This document shows positions 10,465 to 55,516 of a DNA stretch of 59,633 bases, in pieces. Position 1 is the stretch's first letter; every line of letters starts with the position of its first letter. The notes beneath the pieces are model-generated. The model searched no databases. It was not told where the DNA came from and was given only the letters and a program-made list of their open reading frames with translations. The translations under genes were made by a program, and so were the position numbers. Location of the stretch: IMG/VR virus record IMGVR_UViG_3300025324_000002, positions 1-59,633 of that record; one strand, given 5' to 3'. This stretch comes from a virus.

Positions 10465-11058
10465 ATGAAACTGGGTATCGGCATCCCGTATCGCAGCAGC
10501 ATCAAAGTAGTAACGATGATGAGCTTGATTGTCGCGGTGCAGCGGCTCGGCGAAGGCGCGGAGATTTTTTTCTGCGCCAAGCCGGGCGCGTTAGTACACT
10601 GGAACCGTGAAGAGATTTTTGAAATTGCACGGCTGGCGGGATGCACGCACCTTTTGTTTCTCGATACTGACATGAAATTCCCGGCTGTCACGTTTCAAAA
10701 GCTGCTCGACTTGGATAGGGATATTGTCGGCGTGCTTTCATTCAAGCGCGCCTTGCCGCTCATACCTACGGTTCATGTATCAGATGAACAGGCTCCTAAC
10801 GGCTGGCGAAATGCGGCAATAGAGGAAATTCCATCCAGACCGTTCAACGAAATCAGCGGGCGGTCTATCGCGGTCGGAACTGGGATCATGCTTATAAATA
10901 TGGCGCGGGCCGAGCGCGTGGCGCAACCGAGATTCAAAGCAGAGTGGCAGGGACTTGGCGAAGACGTTTATTTTTGCGCTCAAGCCATTGCCGCGGGGTT
11001 AGGGGTTTGGTGTGACCCGACCATACCAATTAAACACATAGGAGACTTTGACTACTAA
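10465..11058 (+). CDS. GT-A fold glycosyltransferase (family-2-like)
   Basis: LFLDTDMKFP (DxD at 10663..10671), GTGIMLI, GEDVYFC, KHIG motifs. Confidence 0.7.
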   Translation: MKLGIGIPYRSSIKVVTMMSLIVAVQRLGEGAEIFFCAKPGALVHWNREEIFEIARLAGCTHLLFLDTDMKFPAVTFQKLLDLDRDIVGVLSFKRALPLIPTVHVSDEQAPNGWRNAAIEEIPSRPFNEISGRSIAVGTGIMLINMARAERVAQPRFKAEWQGLGEDVYFCAQAIAAGLGVWCDPTIPIKHIGDFDY

Positions 11059-12731: not shown

Positions 12732-14252
12732 GTGGGAATTCTAGCTCCTGATTATACGATAACCTCTTTCGCCGGAGGTGTTAATACCCGTGACCATCCC
12801 GTGGGGGAGGGTTTAGGCAGGGCCGATTTAGTGACCTGCGTGAATATGATGCCGCTCGGTAGCTCGCTTCAAGGCAGGGGCGGGCAGACAGAGTTATTCG
12901 GAACGCAAATCGACGCCAACCCTATTCGTAGTCTCTACAGGTTCTATAAAAATTCTGGAACACGAATCACGGTCGCCACTTCGGGAACCAAGGTTTACAC
13001 TGTAACCGGGTCCGGTGCTACAGAAATTGATGCCGCCTACACTGCGGACAAGAAATTCTCGATTGTGAATTGGTCCGTCAAGGATAAGATCTACTGGATC
13101 AACAATTTTGAAGTACTGAAAAGCTATGATGGCACCACGGTTGCCTCAGTCGGCGGCAGCCCTCCGATCGGATCACAGGTCGAGCTCCACGACGATCGAT
13201 TATGGATACTCCAAAACAACCTCGTTTACTTCTCAGACCTGAACGTTGACAATGTTTGGCCGGCGGCCAATGCTCTCAATCTTGCGGATAAGTTTGGCGG
13301 CACAGGGCAGTTTCTGAAATCGTTTGGCCGTGGACTTCTGATAGCCGGCAAGGATTCCGGCATATATCGCTTTGAGGGTTCGCCGAAACTTGGCGGGAGG
13401 CTCACCAGATACAGCGATGTCAAGTGCGTGGCGCCATGGAGCGCCGCTATCGTCCCGTCGCAAAAGGGGACGCCCGACAGCTTGATCTTTCTTGCTCAGG
13501 ACGGAGTTTACGCTACGGACGGATTTAACTGTGGTCATATTTCGGAAAAGATCGATCCGTTATTTACCGGCTTTTTTCGTACCGCAGTTGGAAAATACTA
13601 TCCTAAAAAGCGACAGTACTTTCTTGCCTTTTCAACTACGGGCGCGGCCAATGATCAATTTTGGGTTGCTACCTATCTCGATACTCCAAACGGTTCTTAT
13701 ATTTCATGGAGTCCGTACACCGGATTTAACGCCGATTCCTTTTCGGTATGGGACGGACCACAAGACAGCGGAGAAATCTACTATGGTCGGTCGGACGCTG
13801 GCAAGATTCGCCAGGCAGATATCGGGGTTCAGGATGTCGGGGTTGATTATAAGTGCAGCTTTCAGACCCGATGGGAAAATTTTGGAACCCTGACGCGCGC
13901 GAAGCAGGCCCGTTGGTTGTTTCCTGTGTTTGAGGCGACCCAGCCTGTCAATTACCAAATCGGCTATACCTTCGGTCGAAGTGTAGTCACTGGGGCTCTG
14001 GATGACCGAGGGCAAAGCGGAATTGCATGGGGACCGGGAACGGTGACATGGGGACCGGGAACGGTGACATGGCTGCTTGGCGGTCCTTTAGAAAATGAAG
14101 TGTCCTCAGTTTTGAACTTTAACTGGGGAAGGTATCTATCTTTTTACTTTGAAAATACCGGAGAAGGCAGTGGCTTTAAGTTTCATCAATTGGGGGCACA
14201 GTTAAAAATTAAAGATAGCCATCTCCGTCAGCCTTTTGCTATTGCTTCTTAG
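12732..14252 (+). CDS. putative tail tube/nozzle (beta-propeller-like) protein
   Basis: 506 aa with repetitive beta-strand blades; contains the WGPGTVT tandem repeat. Confidence 0.5.
   Translation: MGILAPDYTITSFAGGVNTRDHPVGEGLGRADLVTCVNMMPLGSSLQGRGGQTELFGTQIDANPIRSLYRFYKNSGTRITVATSGTKVYTVTGSGATEIDAAYTADKKFSIVNWSVKDKIYWINNFEVLKSYDGTTVASVGGSPPIGSQVELHDDRLWILQNNLVYFSDLNVDNVWPAANALNLADKFGGTGQFLKSFGRGLLIAGKDSGIYRFEGSPKLGGRLTRYSDVKCVAPWSAAIVPSQKGTPDSLIFLAQDGVYATDGFNCGHISEKIDPLFTGFFRTAVGKYYPKKRQYFLAFSTTGAANDQFWVATYLDTPNGSYISWSPYTGFNADSFSVWDGPQDSGEIYYGRSDAGKIRQADIGVQDVGVDYKCSFQTRWENFGTLTRAKQARWLFPVFEATQPVNYQIGYTFGRSVVTGALDDRGQSGIAWGPGTVTWGPGTVTWLLGGPLENEVSSVLNFNWGRYLSFYFENTGEGSGFKFHQLGAQLKIKDSHLRQPFAIAS
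14026..14072 (+). repeat. 21-bp perfect tandem repeat x2.2 inside the tail gene
   Basis: catggggaccgggaacggtga repeated head to tail; encodes AWGPGTVTWGPGTVTW. Confidence 0.9.
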
Positions 14253-32764: not shown

Positions 32765-33072
32765 TGGGCCTCATCAAACTCAAAGCAAAGCACAAAGTAG
32801 CGGTCGTTCCCAGAACTCGCTGCAAAGGGCCGAAGTGCCATGATGAGATATTGTTCCCGTTGGAGGGCTTATCCCAGGCTACGGCGTTCACCTGTAGCCT
32901 CCCACTTGGGCACAGGGGGCGCTGTGAATTCGAATCAACCCATCGACAGCCCGACGGCACGATTAGGCGGTATCATATTGATTGGAGCGCGCCGCTGACT
33001 CAGGCTCCACGACAACACAAAACAGAATGGTTCTACTGGAGGGGACAAGATGAAAAAAAATACCAAGATTAG
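32764..33072 (+). CDS. hypothetical protein
   Basis: GTG overlaps the upstream stop; 102 aa. Confidence 0.4.
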   Translation: MGLIKLKAKHKVAVVPRTRCKGPKCHDEILFPLEGLSQATAFTCSLPLGHRGRCEFESTHRQPDGTIRRYHIDWSAPLTQAPRQHKTEWFYWRGQDEKKYQD

Positions 33073-33409
33073 AATCTGGGGCGCGCTATGGGTGCTCCTA
33101 CTGTCAGCGGGGCCGGCGCTGGCCGTCGATGCAGATTTGTCGTGGACAGACAACGCGACGAATGAAGACGGTTTTCGTGTCCAGCGAAAACTCAACGGGA
33201 CGGCGCTTTCGACAATCGAAATCGTTGGGGCGAACATCGTAACGTTCAAAGACCAATCGCTTGTTCAGGACAAGTTTGTCAACAATGTCTACTGCTTTGC
33301 TGTCAGTGCATTCAACACGGGAGGTGACAGCAGTTTGTCTAACGAGGGGTGTAAGACGGTGGCGCGCGCGGCGCCGGACGGTGCCCCGAATAACTTGACT
33401 GTTAAATGA
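33050..33409 (+). CDS. secreted fibronectin-type-III-like protein
   Basis: Signal peptide ...LLLSAGPALA/VD; DLSWTDNATNEDGFRVQRK is Fn3-like. Confidence 0.6.
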   Translation: MKKNTKIRIWGALWVLLLSAGPALAVDADLSWTDNATNEDGFRVQRKLNGTALSTIEIVGANIVTFKDQSLVQDKFVNNVYCFAVSAFNTGGDSSLSNEGCKTVARAAPDGAPNNLTVK

Positions 33410-33429
33410 GATGCACCATGCGTGATTGA

Positions 33430-33448
33430 AATCTCCGGTGCGGAGATT
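33430..33448 (+). other. 8-bp stem-loop after the last late gene
   Basis: aatctccg gtg cggagatt. Confidence 0.4.
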
Positions 33449-33524
33449 ACGGTTGTCAGGTTTTTGAAGGAATAAGGAGGGCCGCTATGTAAAAATCACG
33501 GTTGCTTGTTTCGTTGACAGCTAG

Positions 33525-33566
33525 CACAAGGGCCGGCGCTGGATCGCCGGCCCTTTGTGTTTGTGG
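33525..33566 (+). terminator. hairpin H1 with interrupted U-tract
   Basis: cacaagggccggcg / cgccggccctttgtg (14-bp stem with one bulge), then tttgtgg. Confidence 0.55.
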
Positions 33567-33595
33567 TTGACGGCAAAGCGAAAATGTGGGATAAA
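33567..33595 (+). promoter_or_regulatory. sigma70-like promoter P1
   Basis: TTGACG-17 nt-GATAAA immediately after H1. Confidence 0.4.
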
Positions 33596-33601
33596 GGAAA
33601 T

Positions 33602-33668
33602 CCTTGCAAAGGGGTCAGGTTTTCCAGCACTCAGGCCCGGTTGAGAAATCTTCCGGGCCTTTGTGTTT
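33602..33668 (+). ncRNA. candidate small RNA 1 (P1 to H2)
   Basis: About 67 nt between the predicted +1 and the H2 U-tract; no credible ORF. Confidence 0.35.
33633..33668 (+). terminator. hairpin H2 with U-tract
   Basis: aggcccgg-TTGAGAAATCTT-ccgggcct, then ttgtgttt. Confidence 0.55.
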
Positions 33669-33695
33669 GACACCAAAAGGGAAATGTGAGATAAG
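33667..33695 (+). promoter_or_regulatory. sigma70-like promoter P2
   Basis: TTGACA-17 nt-GATAAG, exactly 100 bp after P1. Confidence 0.4.
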
Positions 33696-33701
33696 GAAAA
33701 C

Positions 33702-33811
33702 ACGGTGAAGGAACACACAAAGGGACCTGCGGACCCCCATTTATCTGAATAGCTACGCAGGGCGATGTCAGGTAAGGCCGGGTTGAGAAATCTTCCCGGC
33801 CTTTGTGTTTT
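33702..33811 (+). ncRNA. candidate small RNA 2 (P2 to H3)
   Basis: About 110 nt ending at H3; no credible ORF. Confidence 0.35.
33774..33811 (+). terminator. hairpin H3 with U-tract
   Basis: aaggccggg-TTGAGAAATCTT-cccggcctt, then tgtgtttt; same loop as H2, with a compensatory stem change. Confidence 0.55.
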
Positions 33812-33916
33812 AAAGGAGCTCGAATCGCTTGCGTAGCCACCGCCACGCCCGCTTGATGCGGCGCCAATAGAACCCGCACAGCACGCGCGCGGCGAAGAGG
33901 TTGGCGGAGCGGTTGT

Positions 33917-34249
33917 TCACGATTCCTTCTCTATCCAATTCGCTCCGCCTTGTATACCAGGGTACTCCAGCGCGCCGGCAAGCCGTGACAGCCGACGTCG
34001 TAGCGCTGTCGGACCTTCCTGCCAGTTGCCACTTTTTAGACCCTCTTGCCAAAATTCGCATTCCCACTTTATCACTTCGCGGAGTCGCCGGATTCTGTCA
34101 AGTGCGAGATCCAGGTCGTATTTAAGATGGGCGTTCTCTTGCTGCGTTGATTGGAGCAGTTCTTCCCTCGTTGGCAACCGGCGCACCTTCGGGACCCGGA
34201 TTTGCTCACCGAAAGACTTCATGGGGATGATTGGCTTTTCGTGGGGCAT
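33917..34249 (-). CDS. hypothetical coiled-coil protein
   Basis: 110 aa, downstream of and co-oriented with the XRE gene. Confidence 0.5.
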   Translation of the reverse strand: MPHEKPIIPMKSFGEQIRVPKVRRLPTREELLQSTQQENAHLKYDLDLALDRIRRLREVIKWECEFWQEGLKSGNWQEGPTALRRRLSRLAGALEYPGIQGGANWIEKES

Positions 34250-34393
34250 GGTTGTCTAGCAATGGCCGGGCCGTGACGGATAATTGACAATAACTGACTT
34301 AGATGTCGCGCTAACTCCCTGAAATTCCAGGGATTACGTTTTCCAAGGTCTGATATGATATATTCTGAATGATATTAAGTACTTAGATACACT

Positions 34394-34431: not shown

Positions 34432-34791
34432 TTACGCTGTCTTGATAACGCCTTTAGTCCTCGAACTATGTCTACTTGCGTCCCCTTTGTCCTGGATTTT
34501 CGCGTTTTGTTCCCGCCCAAAATCACTCTGAGCTTTGCTCTGCGCAGTGCCGCGCGAATCTGTTTTAGGTTCATGCGGCGCGTGGCGTTGCAAGTCGCGT
34601 TCCGTGAGCAGGTCACATTCAGCCATCAGAGGAAGCAGGCGGAGAAACGCCGCGAACTGTTTCTCTAAATTACTGCCGGCGTTTTCCATTCCCTGAATCA
34701 TTTGCTGATTCGTGTTCAATTGCTGCGCTAATTGGGCCTGGGTCCAGTTTTTTTCTTGCCTAATTTTCCTAATTGTTTCGCGCAATTGCAT
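34432..34791 (-). CDS. XRE-family HTH regulator (repressor-like, no peptidase domain)
   Basis: IRKIRQEKNWTQAQLAQQLNTNQQMIQGMENAGSN; divergent from the early operon. Confidence 0.7.
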   Translation of the reverse strand: MQLRETIRKIRQEKNWTQAQLAQQLNTNQQMIQGMENAGSNLEKQFAAFLRLLPLMAECDLLTERDLQRHAPHEPKTDSRGTAQSKAQSDFGREQNAKIQDKGDASRHSSRTKGVIKTA

Positions 34792-34819: not shown

Positions 34820-34848
34820 TTGACAGGATTTCCTGTTTCCTGTATAGA
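34820..34848 (+). promoter_or_regulatory. early rightward promoter
   Basis: TTGACA (34820..34825)-17 nt-TATAGA (34843..34848). Confidence 0.55.
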
Positions 34849-34849
34849 C

Positions 34850-34865
34850 TGTTGCATATGCAACA
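34850..34865. promoter_or_regulatory. operator: perfect 16-bp palindrome TGTTGCATATGCAACA
   Basis: Immediately after the -10 box and covering the ATG at 34858. Confidence 0.55.
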
Positions 34866-42852: not shown

Positions 42853-43728
42853 ATGTCGTATCTTCATATTGCGAATCTTTATCGGCCTGAAGCCCAACGG
42901 ATTCTTGAATTTAAGCAAGTATTCGTCATGGAAAAAATACACGGCACCTCGGCGCATGTGGCTTGGAAGGATAATGCTCTACGGTTTTTCTCCGGTGGAT
43001 CGAAGCATGAAACGTTCGTTGCTCTGTTCGCGGAGGAACAACTGCAGGCCGCATTTAGCGAGATGGCAAATCCCGATGTGACTGTCTACGGCGAAGCCTA
43101 TGGCGGCAAAATTCAGGGAATGAGCAAAGTTTATGGACCCAAGATTAGATTCGTAGCCTTCGAAGTCAAGATAGGCGGTTCTTGGCTTTCTGTCCCACAG
43201 GCTTGCGATATTGCCGTGAATAGGCTCGGTTTGGACTTTGTTTGCTACGATCTGAGCGCAACCGATATTGAATCGCTGAACGAGCACCGAGATGCAAACT
43301 CGGCTCAGGCCATGAAAAACGGCATGGGCGAGCATCCACGCGAAGGTATAGTAATCCGTCCGCCATTTGAGGTCATCCTAAACAACGGCGAAAGACTAAT
43401 TGCTAAATACAAAACCGAAGCATTTCAAGAACGGACACGCGAGCCCAAGATAGGCGAAGATTTGAAAACTCTCACCGATGCCGAGGCGGCAGCGGATGAG
43501 TGGGTCACAAATAACCGGATGGAGCATGTACTAGATTCGTTGTGTTCCGAATCTGTGGATGTTCAGGATATTACCGCCACGGGTGCAGTGATTAAGCGAA
43601 TGTATCAAGACATAGAGCGTGAGGGCGCGGGAGAACTTGAGTTTTCAAAAATGCTTTCGCGGGCTATCGGACAAAAAACGGCCAAAATGTTTAAGCAGAG
43701 ATTGCAGACGCGGATTAATGAGGGGTAG
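42853..43728 (+). CDS. RNA ligase (Rnl2 / PF09414-like nucleotidyltransferase)
   Basis: Motif I EKIHGTS (Lys at 42934..42936), GEAYGGKIQG, FVAFEV, REGIVIRP, AKYK. Confidence 0.7.
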   Translation: MSYLHIANLYRPEAQRILEFKQVFVMEKIHGTSAHVAWKDNALRFFSGGSKHETFVALFAEEQLQAAFSEMANPDVTVYGEAYGGKIQGMSKVYGPKIRFVAFEVKIGGSWLSVPQACDIAVNRLGLDFVCYDLSATDIESLNEHRDANSAQAMKNGMGEHPREGIVIRPPFEVILNNGERLIAKYKTEAFQERTREPKIGEDLKTLTDAEAAADEWVTNNRMEHVLDSLCSESVDVQDITATGAVIKRMYQDIEREGAGELEFSKMLSRAIGQKTAKMFKQRLQTRINEG

Positions 43729-43731
43729 GGG

Positions 43732-44946
43732 ATGACGCCATCTAACGCCTGGATGGGCTGCTACGAGATGGGCTGGCAAGGGCTAATTGTGCCAGAGGCA
43801 TTCGCTCATCCTGCCAAGGTCTCCCGCGGACTGATCCGCCGCATCTACAAGCACGCCTTTGACGAGGGCTGGCTGAAACACGGCGATTCGGTGGTTGATC
43901 CATTCGGCGGCATCGCCGGCACAGCCTTAGACGCCATGTGGAACCGCTGTCACTGGATAGGTGTGGAGTTGGAACCCCGCTTTGTGGCGCTAGCCGAGCA
44001 GAACATCGCTCTTTGGCAACGCAAGTTCGGGAGCAATGCGGGCTGGGGCCGAGGGATAATCATTCAGGGGGACTCCCGGCAGTTGGTGAGCGTGATAGCG
44101 GGCGCGGATTTGATTTGTTCTTCGCCGCCGTTCCATGACTCGATGAGCAACAAACCAAGTGCGCAGATTCTAGCTGGTAGCGGCGGGCGCATGGGTGAAA
44201 GTTGCAAATCTAACGATATCTACGGCACCACCGAAGGCCAGCTAGGCCGCATGAAAGAAGGCACCCCGCCGAGCGTGGAGATGATTGTCGGGAGCCCGCC
44301 GTTTACCGACAGCATGAACACGCAAGACGTTAAATTTTGGCACAAACACATAACCGATATCGGGCGTGATCCCGATACACCAGGGGCGAGAAGTTTGATT
44401 GGCGATTACGGCTCCACTCCCGGCCAGCTCGGCGCCATGCCCGAGGGCAAGTTTGACGCGGTGATTAGCTCGCCGCCGTTCGAGCAAAGCAATCTCACGG
44501 TTGACAAAAATTTTATGGCCCAGGTTGAGCGAGACAAACGTAATGGGTCCCGTCTGCAGCCAGGACTCGGCACGTACGGAAAAGAGGCTGGCAACATCGG
44601 CAACCAATCCGGCTCCACTTTCTGGACCGCCGCCCGCGAGATTGTCGCCCAATGCCACGCGATATTGCGACCGGGCGGTCACTCGATTTGGGTTTGTAAG
44701 GATTTCGTTAGAAAGGGCCAGCGCGTGCCCTTCAGCGACCAATGGCAGGCGCTATGTGAGGCGGAGGGCTTTCGGCTGGTCTGCCGCCATCGCGCAATGC
44801 TCGTGGCGCATCACGGGGAGCATGGTCAGTTATTCGGTGGGAGCGAACAACTCAAAACCGAGCGAAAGAGTTTTTTTCGCAGGCTTGCCGAGAAAAAAGG
44901 TAGCCCTGCGATAGACTGGGAAGACGTGCTCTGCTTGGAGCGATGA
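43732..44946 (+). CDS. DNA N4-C/N6-A methyltransferase with triplicated SPPF motif IV
   Basis: AHPAK...VVDPFGGIAGT (motifs X and I), then SPPF at 44122, 44293 and 44470; LRPGG after the third. Confidence 0.8.
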   Translation: MTPSNAWMGCYEMGWQGLIVPEAFAHPAKVSRGLIRRIYKHAFDEGWLKHGDSVVDPFGGIAGTALDAMWNRCHWIGVELEPRFVALAEQNIALWQRKFGSNAGWGRGIIIQGDSRQLVSVIAGADLICSSPPFHDSMSNKPSAQILAGSGGRMGESCKSNDIYGTTEGQLGRMKEGTPPSVEMIVGSPPFTDSMNTQDVKFWHKHITDIGRDPDTPGARSLIGDYGSTPGQLGAMPEGKFDAVISSPPFEQSNLTVDKNFMAQVERDKRNGSRLQPGLGTYGKEAGNIGNQSGSTFWTAAREIVAQCHAILRPGGHSIWVCKDFVRKGQRVPFSDQWQALCEAEGFRLVCRHRAMLVAHHGEHGQLFGGSEQLKTERKSFFRRLAEKKGSPAIDWEDVLCLER

Positions 44947-55473: not shown

Positions 55474-55516
55474 GTTATCCTCCCGCCCGGCAGCCACGCC
55501 GGGCTTTGTTTTGGGT

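What the first reader, a model, noticed from the sequence alone, without database searches (positions are those of the whole stretch)
33525..33811. 100-bp-periodic hairpin + promoter units: candidate tandem phage sRNA genes
Three + strand GC hairpins lie between the last late gene and the repressor-like gene, and each is followed by TTTGTGTTT-type U-tracts. H1 and H2 are each followed at once by a sigma70-like promoter: TTGACG-17-GATAAA at 33567 and TTGACA-17-GATAAG at 33667, exactly 100 bp apart. This predicts transcripts of about 67 and 110 nt that end at H2 and H3. H2 and H3 share an identical 12-nt loop (TTGAGAAATCTT) and U-tract. Their stems differ by one compensatory pair (GGCCCGG/CCGGGCC versus GGCCGGG/CCCGGCC), which suggests selection on RNA structure rather than on coding. 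The minus-strand ORFs the track places here (33521..33718, 33631..33879) run through these palindromes and have no RBS. Alternatives are a stacked terminator array insulating the late operon, or put/nut-like RNA elements acting on RNA polymerase.
Basis: seen in the sequence. Interest (0 to 1): 0.8.

Follow-up and report, generated by a model that had tools for sequence, protein, structure and literature searches.

The report
Terminator cluster with two promoter–terminator cassettes
At the point where this phage's late genes meet its oppositely oriented repressor genes there are three strong transcription stop signals, two of them preceded by promoter-like boxes that could make two short non-coding RNAs; this is a plausible but unproven small-RNA locus of an ordinary kind.

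Summary
H1 (33528-33555), H2 (33633-33660) and H3 (33775-33802) are + strand GC hairpins with TTTGTGTTT tails. They are three of only four strong intrinsic terminators in the 59.6-kb window. Two promoter-like boxes, TTGACG-17-(TGg)GATAAA and TTGACA-17-(TGa)GATAAG, lie exactly 100 bp apart and would give RNAs of about 67 and 110 nt.

- **For promoters:** the only other match to this box pattern in the window is the putative early promoter (TTGACA-17-TATAGA). One related phage (L152) keeps a single cassette: the TGTGAGATAAG box and an H2-like hairpin are conserved, but the RNA body is not.
- **Against a special RNA:**
  - There is no Rfam hit.
  - Covariation is a single pair among three related copies, which is not significant.
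  - No target in the phage stands out over shuffled controls.
  - The 12-nt loop recurs in unrelated phage terminators, but so does a control loop, so it is a generic GAAA-capped terminator tip.

**Verdict:** this is the late-operon stop zone with two ORF-less promoter-terminator cassettes made by local duplication. They are candidate small RNAs of unknown target. It is a new member of a known kind and of modest interest.

The parts
33528..33566 (+). H1: strong intrinsic terminator. 11-bp GC-rich stem, 6-nt loop, tail TGTGTTTGTGG. First stop after the last late gene, which ends at 33409. The upstream CACAA can pair with the tail, so it may act in both directions.
   Evidence: (-28.6 kcal/mol, z -4.97).
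33567..33595 (+). P1: promoter-like box TTGACG-17-(TGg)GATAAA. The predicted start is about 33600-33603.
   Evidence: (D1). Not listed by the generic scan, because the last base of the -10 hexamer is not T.
33595..33604 (.). AGGAAATCCT, a near-palindromic 10-mer at the predicted P1 start. Its only other copy in the window lies inverted in the spacer of the putative early promoter (34825-34834). It may be a shared operator.
   Evidence: I2: 21 nt, 81% complementary; shuffle P about 0.02. Suggestive only.
33600..33669 (+). Predicted transcript 1, about 67 nt: a 30-nt 5' body plus H2.
   Evidence: Inferred from the positions of P1 and H2. Fold. No expression data.
33633..33669 (+). H2: intrinsic terminator. 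8-bp stem, 12-nt 'loop' that folds as a UU/UU internal loop, then GA/UC pairs, then a GAAA tetraloop. Tail TTGTGTTTG overlaps the -35 box of P2.
   Evidence: D2, D3; -23.4 kcal/mol, z -5.93.
33667..33695 (+). P2: promoter-like box TTGACA-17-(TGa)GATAAG. The predicted start is about 33700-33703. TGTGAGATAAG is identical in the L152 cassette.
33700..33811 (+). Predicted transcript 2, about 110 nt: a 72-nt body plus H3. AACACACAAAGG (33712-33723) can pair with the terminator tail. A 15-codon GTG ORF (33705-33752) is present but is not conserved in L152.
   Evidence: I3; -41.3 kcal/mol, z -2.88; I5, I6.
33774..33811 (+). H3: intrinsic terminator and a duplicate of H2 (34 of 36 identical; the two differences form one C-G to G-C swap). 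No promoter box follows it.
   Evidence: D2; -20.6 kcal/mol, z -4.59.
33874..33892 (-). Weak terminator-like hairpin on the minus strand, just after the stop of the convergent 110-aa gene (33917-34249). It marks the other side of the convergence zone.
34820..34848 (+). Putative early promoter TTGACA-17-TATAGA, between the HTH repressor-like gene and the cro-like gene. Used as the in-genome comparison for P1 and P2.

Best explanation
The segment is the transcription stop zone at the end of the + strand late (structural and lysis) operon. Here that operon converges on the minus-strand 110-aa gene and the HTH repressor-like gene. Three strong intrinsic terminators, H1 to H3, stop + strand RNA polymerase before it can run antisense into those genes.

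Two ORF-less promoter-to-terminator cassettes are built into the zone: P1 to H2 (about 67 nt) and P2 to H3 (about 110 nt). They arose by local duplication of a 'terminator tail plus promoter' block and of the H2/H3 hairpin. They most likely make two short, stable non-coding RNAs. P1 may be under the phage's own repressor or Cro, through an operator-like AGGAAATCCT at its start site.

- **Shown:** the hairpins, tails, boxes and duplications; that such terminators are rare elsewhere in the genome; that one relative keeps the box and the hairpin; that there is no coding evidence.
- **Inferred:** that the boxes fire, that discrete RNAs accumulate, and that they do anything beyond being made. No target is identified. 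The only conserved RNA part is the terminator hairpin.
For: - **Terminators.**: these are 3 of the 4 strong sites in 59.6 kb. All are on the + strand, directly after the last late gene.
- **Promoter boxes.** Perfect or near-perfect -35 hexamer, 17-bp spacer and TGn extended -10. Their 33-nt shared consensus, derived from the two boxes themselves, matches nowhere else in the window and 0 of 100 shuffles.
- **Box pattern in the genome.** TTGACN-N17-KAWANR, a pattern I wrote after seeing these sites, matches only P1, P2 and the putative early promoter at 34820 (5 of 100 shuffles reach 3 matches).
- **Related phages.** Their putative early promoters have the same form: TTGACA-17-TAAACA and TTGACT-17-TAAAAG.
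- **Relative L152** (neighbouring protein 68% identical). It has one cassette in the same place, with TTGCAA-18-TGTGAGATAAG and an H2-type hairpin and tail, while the roughly 70-nt body is unalignable.
- **No coding evidence.** No gene was called here on the source contig. The minus-strand ORFs have no family match. Small + strand ORFs are not conserved (reading).
- **Possible operator.**
Against: - Both -10 hexamers (GATAAA, GATAAG) lack the T at the last position, which is normally critical for sigma-70. The generic scan did not list them.
- The host is unknown, so its promoter rules are unknown.
- There is only one informative relative. Two others (L153, L154) lack the cassette, and L329 has other genes at this place.
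- The RNA bodies are not conserved, which is unusual for a base-pairing regulator.
- No Rfam family matches.
- No complementarity within the phage exceeds that of shuffled controls.
- Covariation is a single pair and is not significant.
- The shared operator 10-mer was found after the fact, with P about 0.02.
- There are no expression data.
Confidence: 0.5

Rival explanations
1. This is a pure terminator stack. H1 to H3 are three redundant intrinsic terminators that insulate the convergent repressor module from strong, possibly antiterminated, late transcription. The promoter-like boxes are inactive and were carried along when the terminator tail was duplicated.
For: - The terminators are strong and cluster at a convergence point.
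- The -10 hexamers lack the final T, and the generic scan ignores them.
- The RNA bodies are unconserved and have no target or family.
- Relatives L153 and L154 do without the cassette; L154 has a different terminator hairpin at this place.
Against: - The 11-nt box TGTGAGATAAG and a -35-like hexamer survive in L152 while the flanking non-coding sequence has diverged. My own estimate is that an exact 11-mer shared by two random 100-nt stretches has odds of about 0.002.
- The box form equals that of the putative early promoters of three related phages.
Confidence: 0.33
2. These are decayed or miniature 'morons': remnants of promoter-gene-terminator inserts whose ORFs were lost, or units that still encode a micropeptide. 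An example is the 15-codon GTG ORF at 33705-33752, which has an AAGGA about 7 nt upstream.
For: - The promoter-body-terminator layout is the moron layout (PMC3594210).
- Orphan ribosome-binding sites lie in the region: AGGAGG-N6-ATG-TAA at 33474-33491 and AGGAGG in the L152 body.
- The bodies differ completely between the copies.
Against: - No small ORF is conserved among U1, U2 and L152 (reading).
- The only ORF in unit 1 runs through terminator H2.
- The 15-aa peptide matches no known family; this could not be tested meaningfully at that length.
Confidence: 0.08
3. These are RNA elements that act on RNA polymerase, either nut/boxB-like or put-like antitermination signals, or a protein-binding hairpin with a special conserved loop.
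For: - The tip GA-GAAA-UC has a GNRA tetraloop, which loosely resembles boxB.
- The 12-nt loop recurs with different stems in unrelated phage contigs.
Against: - A control loop of the same composition (TTAGGAAACTTT) recurs in terminator stems at a similar rate: 3 independent families against 6, in 120 hits each.
- Mini-stems capped by a tetraloop are common terminator tips in 2.8 Mb of fetched phage DNA.
- No boxA-like sequence lies within 1.5 kb.
- No + strand gene lies downstream to be antiterminated; the next genes are convergent.
- No Rfam match.
Confidence: 0.04
4. The feature acts at the DNA level. The repeated boxes and palindromes would be binding sites for the repressor, Cro or another DNA-binding protein (extra operators), or a recombination hot spot, rather than transcription signals.
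For: - AGGAAATCCT is shared with the early promoter region.
- The history of local duplications includes a TTTGTG doubling in the H1 tail and a possible decayed hairpin copy at 33424-33441.
Against: - The 10-mer is present only at P1, not at P2 or in L152.
- The hairpins have the oriented T-rich tails of terminators, which a DNA site would not need.
- The statistical support for the operator is weak.
Confidence: 0.05

Closest known systems
Rho-independent (intrinsic) terminators, including tandem and bidirectional terminators at convergent gene junctions
   Same: GC-rich stem, T-rich tail, correct orientation directly after the last gene of an operon, and a location where two transcription units converge. 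The CACAA upstream of H1 pairs with the tail, as in bidirectional terminators.
   Different: There are three within 290 bp, and two of them have promoter-like boxes fused to the preceding terminator tail. Termination itself was not measured.
Phage 'morons': independent promoter-gene-terminator units inserted between phage genes (PMC3594210)
   Same: A self-contained promoter plus terminator unit at the edge of the late region. It is variable between related phages and was apparently gained or lost as a block.
   Different: There is no conserved ORF between promoter and terminator. The payload, if any, would be RNA.
Short phage transcripts that run from a constitutive promoter to an intrinsic terminator: lambda oop RNA, lambda 6S (PR'-tR') RNA, P22 sar RNA (from general knowledge)
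   Same: RNAs of about 70-190 nt defined only by a promoter and a nearby terminator, encoded near the regulatory region of a temperate-type phage.
   Different: oop and sar are antisense to a specific gene, and 6S is the leader of the late operon. Here no gene lies opposite or downstream in the same orientation. There is no sequence or Rfam similarity.
Prophage-encoded trans-acting small RNAs with paralogous copies, such as DicF, IpeX, and PasD1/PasD2 (bioRxiv 10.64898/2026.05.13.724894)
   Same: ORF-less genes on phage DNA that end in a terminator hairpin, are sometimes duplicated, and vary between related elements.
   Different: Those RNAs have conserved seed regions and known targets. Here only the terminator and the promoter box are conserved, and no target is detectable in the phage. 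The host is unknown.

Membership tests
Intrinsic (Rho-independent) terminator | Stable GC-rich hairpin | tested here: met
   -20.6 to -28.6 kcal/mol, z-scores -4.6 to -5.9, 8-11 perfect pairs.
Intrinsic (Rho-independent) terminator | T/U-rich tract immediately 3' of the stem, on the transcribed strand of the upstream operon | tested here: met
   Tails TTTGTGTTT(G/T) on the + strand after the + strand late genes. The tract is interrupted by G.
Intrinsic (Rho-independent) terminator | Transcripts actually end there | not testable with these tools
   Needs Term-seq or in vitro transcription.
Bacterial or phage small-RNA gene | Own promoter | tested here: inconclusive
   The -35 hexamer is TTGACA or TTGACG, the spacer is 17 bp and TGn precedes the -10. 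The -10 is GATAAR, without the final T. The form is the same as the putative early promoters of this phage and two relatives. No activity data.
Bacterial or phage small-RNA gene | Terminator at the 3' end and no coding capacity | tested here: met
   No ORF is conserved between the units.
Bacterial or phage small-RNA gene | Conserved single-stranded seed or body among relatives | tested here: not met
   The bodies of U1, U2 and the L152 unit do not align. Only three copies are available.
Bacterial or phage small-RNA gene | Complementarity to a target mRNA | tested here: not met
   RNAduplex of both bodies against the whole window, both strands: the best energies lie within the range of 12 shuffles each. 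Host targets are not testable because the host is unknown.
Bacterial or phage small-RNA gene | Structure supported by covariation | tested here: inconclusive
   One compensatory pair in 10 pairs and 3 sequences; 178 of 500 shuffles reach it.
Any Rfam 15 family (including phage sRNAs and antisense RNAs) | Score at or above the family's gathering threshold | tested here: not met
   There are 0 hits at gathering threshold in the whole window. At E up to 10, only weak terminator-shaped hits to unrelated families appear.
Lambda-type nut site (boxA + boxB) or HK022 put | boxA-like sequence next to a short GNRA-like hairpin, placed between a promoter and downstream genes to be antiterminated | tested here: not met
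   No boxA-like match within 1.5 kb. The apical stem is only 2 bp, flanked by U-U mismatches. No co-oriented genes lie downstream.
Moron (promoter-gene-terminator insert) | An ORF between the promoter and the terminator | tested here: not met
   No conserved ORF. The only candidates are a 15-codon ORF in U2 and an ORF in U1 that runs through H2.
Special conserved-loop hairpin family across phages | The loop sequence recurs in hairpins more often than comparable loops do | tested here: not met
   TTGAGAAATCTT: 6 independent hairpin families in 120 hits. Control TTAGGAAACTTT: 3 in 120. Similar tetraloop-capped tips are common.

The most novel reading that the evidence does not exclude
The two cassettes are real small-RNA genes tied into the lysis-lysogeny circuit. 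P1 would be switched by the phage repressor or Cro through the AGGAAATCCT operator it shares with the early promoter. The RNAs would act on host transcripts or on read-through antisense RNA from the convergent repressor operon. That would make an RNA arm of the immunity region in a phage lineage with no cultured relatives, read by a host polymerase that accepts -10 boxes lacking the usual final T.
Probability: 0.15. Interest if true: 0.55.

Novelty: new member of a known kind. Interest (0 to 1): 0.3.

Why it matters
If the cassettes are active, this little-known metagenomic phage carries two duplicated, ORF-less transcription units next to its repressor. That would be another case of phages using small RNAs near their immunity region, and a clean example of how such genes arise by duplicating a terminator-plus-promoter block.

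If they are not active, the locus is simply a triple terminator that protects the repressor genes from late transcription, which is ordinary.

There is also a practical lesson. A loop shared among unrelated phage terminators looked like a new RNA family until a control loop behaved the same way.

Tried and rejected
1. **Known families and close phage DNA.** Rfam at gathering threshold on the whole window and at E up to 10 on 33450-33900 gave nothing relevant. There are no tRNA or tmRNA genes. blastn against GenBank phages and E. coli genomes gave no match.

2. **A cross-phage family with a conserved loop.** The 16-mer GGTTGAGAAATCTTCC and the 12-nt loop lie inside perfect stems with different sequences in several IMG/VR contigs. 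This looked exciting. I rejected it after a control loop of the same composition behaved the same way, and after an unbiased survey showed that such tips are common.

3. **Searches for relatives.**
   - The loop plus this phage's tail, TTGAGAAATCTY-N6-9-TTTGTGTT, gave 54 unrelated hits in JGI metagenomes and none in IMG/VR.
   - The 110-aa neighbour gave nothing in IMG/VR or GTDB genomes. It has only four homologue clusters among 5.8 billion proteins.
   - The FN3-like neighbour gave distant or non-syntenic loci.
   - Identical copies (L030, L031) carry no information.

4. **Targets in the phage.** RNAduplex was no better than shuffles. An earlier run timed out.

5. **Host identification.** The major capsid protein reaches at most 45% identity, to unrelated MAGs, so it is uninformative.

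6. **Function of the adjacent 110-aa protein.** No Pfam, PHROG, PADLOC or PDB match.

7. **Other readings.** A CRISPR-like array or a type III toxin-antitoxin repeat was considered and dropped: there are only two copies, the spacing is wrong and the orientation is convergent.

8. **Literature.** A search for the loop sequence returned only unrelated primer sequences.

Full report
**What is there.**
Reading 33200-34300 confirms the finding's anatomy. The last + strand late gene is a 119-aa FN3-like ORF at 33050-33409. After it comes a 507-bp stretch with no called gene. Then come the convergent minus-strand 110-aa ORF (33917-34249) and an HTH repressor-like gene (34432-34791; Pfam HTH_3). Within the gap lie three hairpins:
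- H1, 33528-33555.
- H2, 33633-33660.
- H3, 33774-33803.

Each is followed by a TTTGTGTTT-type tail on the + strand. As RNA they fold at -28.6, -23.4 and -20.6 kcal/mol, with z-scores of -5.0, -5.9 and -4.6. I scanned the whole window on both strands for 7 perfect pairs, at least 5 GC, and at least 6 T in the next 10 bases. Only four sites qualify: H1, H2, H3 and one at 55485-55504. The cluster is not a chance feature.

**Promoter-like boxes.**
The two boxes are TTGACG-17-GATAAA (33567-33595) and TTGACA-17-GATAAG (33667-33695). They are exactly 100 bp apart and belong to a 41-nt direct repeat that is 78% identical. Each has TGn just before the second hexamer, which is the extended -10 form. 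The 33-nt degenerate consensus of the two boxes, derived from them, matches nowhere else in the window and 0 of 100 shuffles.

Both second hexamers lack the final T, so the generic sigma-70 scan does not list them. Only the boxes are 100 bp apart. The hairpins are spaced 106 and 142 bp, so '100-bp periodic' overstates the regularity.

**Are the boxes plausible promoters?**
The divergent region between the repressor-like and cro-like genes carries TTGACA-17-TATAGA at 34820. It also lacks the final T. After seeing these sites I wrote the pattern TTGACN-N17-KAWANR. It matches only three places in 59.6 kb: P1, P2 and this putative early promoter (5 of 100 shuffles reach three matches).

In two related phages found through the 110-aa neighbour, the equivalent divergent regions read TTGACA-17-TAAACA (L152) and TTGACT-17-TAAAAG (L153). 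So P1 and P2 look like this phage group's own early promoters. This supports promoter activity but does not show it. The host is unknown.

**Comparative evidence.**
The window is an ENA metagenome contig. A second sample holds an identical copy, which carries no information.

Only one diverged relative keeps the element. In L152 the neighbouring protein is 68% identical. There, a single cassette fills the space between the FN3-like gene's stop and the 110-aa gene. It reads TTGCAA-18-TGTGAGATAAG, then about 70 nt that do not align, then gcactcAGGCCCGGTTGAGAAATCTCCCGGGCCTTTGTGTTTC. The box is identical to P2's, and the hairpin is of the H2 type with one loop change. By my own estimate, an exact 11-mer shared by two random 100-nt stretches has odds of about 0.002. 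The box and the hairpin therefore appear constrained, while the RNA body does not.

Other relatives lack the cassette:
- L153 has no such hairpin.
- L154 has a different terminator hairpin at this place.
- L329 has more genes there.

The cassette is therefore an exchangeable module.

**History of the region.**
Two things are duplicated within the window, and the two duplications are out of register with each other:
- The block 'terminator tail plus promoter' (33547-33600 versus 33653-33700), with an extra TTTGTG in the first copy.
- The hairpin H2/H3 (34 of 36 identical).

This points to repeated local duplication. The two H2/H3 differences form one C-G to G-C swap. Counted formally over H2, H3 and the L152 hairpin, that is one compensatory pair in ten, reached by 178 of 500 shuffles. 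It is compatible with selection for any working hairpin, or with a templated correction inside a palindrome. It is not evidence for a special RNA.

**The loop.**
The 12-nt 'loop' folds as two U-U mismatches, then two pairs (GA/UC), then a GAAA tetraloop. Exact searches showed the same loop inside perfect stems of quite different sequence, followed by T tracts, in unrelated IMG/VR phage contigs of varied GC content. Most of these sit after genes such as capsid or ssb. That suggested a widespread conserved-loop family.

The control refutes this. A loop of the same composition with the two pairs swapped (TTAGGAAACTTT) lies in stems of at least 7 bp plus a T tract in 3 independent families per 120 hits, against 6 per 120 for the real loop. 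An unbiased survey of 2.8 Mb of fetched phage DNA also shows many terminator tips built as a mismatch, a mini-stem and a tetraloop. The loop is a generic terminator tip. Its identity in H2 and H3 reflects recent duplication.

**What the RNAs would be.**
The predicted starts are near 33600 and 33700, and the ends are near 33667 and 33810. The evidence on their nature is as follows:
- No Rfam family matches.
- No small ORF is conserved. The 15-codon ORF at 33705-33752 is absent from L152, and the ORF in unit 1 runs through H2.
- The minus-strand ORFs have no family match.
- The best duplexes of both bodies against the whole window lie within the range of shuffled controls.

**A possible operator.**
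One lead ties P1 to regulation. AGGAAATCCT, a near-palindrome, lies at the predicted P1 start. It occurs only once more in the window, inverted, inside the spacer of the early promoter. This was found after the fact, with a shuffle P of about 0.02, and it is absent from P2 and L152. It is a hint only.

**Mechanism and rivals.**
- **Best reading (0.5).** This is a late-operon stop zone that shields the convergent repressor module. It holds two ORF-less promoter-terminator cassettes that make short non-coding RNAs of unknown target.
- **Main rival (0.33).** The same terminators with silent boxes.
- **Minor rivals.**
  - Decayed morons or a micropeptide (0.08).
  - A DNA-level operator or recombination site (0.05).
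  - nut/put-like elements (0.04). This is disfavoured because no boxA lies nearby, no co-oriented genes lie downstream, and the loop is generic.

**Comparison and novelty.**
In form this matches intrinsic terminators (membership features met, apart from measured termination). It works like a moron without a gene, or like short promoter-to-terminator phage RNAs such as oop, sar and 6S, and like prophage sRNAs that occur as paralogues (PMC3594210; bioRxiv 10.64898/2026.05.13.724894). It is not a member of any curated RNA family. It fails the sRNA criteria of a conserved body and a detectable target.

I rate it a new member of a known kind, with an interest of 0.3. The most novel reading still open is repressor-controlled small RNAs as an RNA arm of the immunity region. 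I give that a probability of about 0.15.

Noticed in passing
window 33474-33491: A strong ribosome-binding site followed by a start codon and an immediate stop (AGGAGG-gccgct-ATG-TAA) in the non-coding gap upstream of H1. It is either a 'start-stop' mini-ORF or the remnant of a lost gene. The body of the L152 cassette also holds an orphan AGGAGG.
   Followed up: no
window 33424-33448: TTGAAATCTCCGGTG resembles the H2 loop plus its 3' arm (TTGAGAAATCTTCCGGG), and it lies inside a small 7-bp hairpin (33428-33448). It may be a decayed fourth copy of the hairpin (family D8).
   Followed up: partly
window 33595-33604 and 34825-34834: The near-palindromic 10-mer AGGAAATCCT occurs exactly twice in the window: at the predicted P1 start, and inverted in the spacer of the putative early promoter. 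It may be a shared operator (shuffle P about 0.02).
   Followed up: partly
window 34820-34860; L152 150-210; L153 1700-1745: The putative early promoters of three related phages all read TTGAC(A/T)-17-TA(T/A)A.. and lack the usual final T of the -10 box. In the window the cro-like ATG (34858) lies only about 9 nt after the -10, which suggests a leaderless mRNA. This may reflect an unusual host promoter rule; the host is unknown.
   Followed up: partly
window 55485-55504: The only other strong intrinsic terminator in the window is also on the + strand (GCCCGGCAGCCACGCCGGGC, tail TTTGTTTTGG). It lies between minus-strand genes, just upstream of a minus-strand ribosome-binding site, so it would block + strand transcription from entering that block.
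   Followed up: no
window 42853-43728 and 43732-44946: An RNA ligase (Pfam PF09414, E 1.7e-12) lies directly next to a DNA methyltransferase (N6_N4_Mtase). Phage RNA ligases are known for repairing tRNA cut by host defence nucleases. No integrase was seen among the larger ORFs tested.
   Followed up: no
L027 about 12900-13000 (minus strand); L141 about 10800-10900 (minus strand); L088 2140-2260: In unrelated IMG/VR contigs, hairpins with the same 12-nt loop lie 45-60 nt downstream of promoter-like boxes. L027 has a Bacteroidetes-type TAtaTTTG box and L141 has TTGCAC-17-TTTAAT, so these may be further small promoter-terminator cassettes. In L088 the hairpin lies just upstream of a sequence that looks like a tRNA gene (by eye; no tRNA scan was run on L088).
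   Followed up: no
fetched phage loci L001-L344 (2.8 Mb): Terminator tips built as a short mismatch, a 2-bp mini-stem and a GNRA or UUCG tetraloop (apparent loops of 10-14 nt) are frequent among strong terminator-like hairpins. Any 'conserved loop' claim about terminators should take this into account.
   Followed up: partly
window 33610-33626 and 34329-34345: A 17-nt direct repeat (82% identical) links the body of predicted transcript 1 to the region upstream of the 110-aa gene. Transcript 1 could therefore pair with that minus-strand leader (15 of 17 pairs, counted by hand). The repeat finder warns that short two-copy families like this are often chance matches (family D4), and the duplex did not appear among the top hits of the target scan, whose best energies did not exceed shuffles.
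   Followed up: partly
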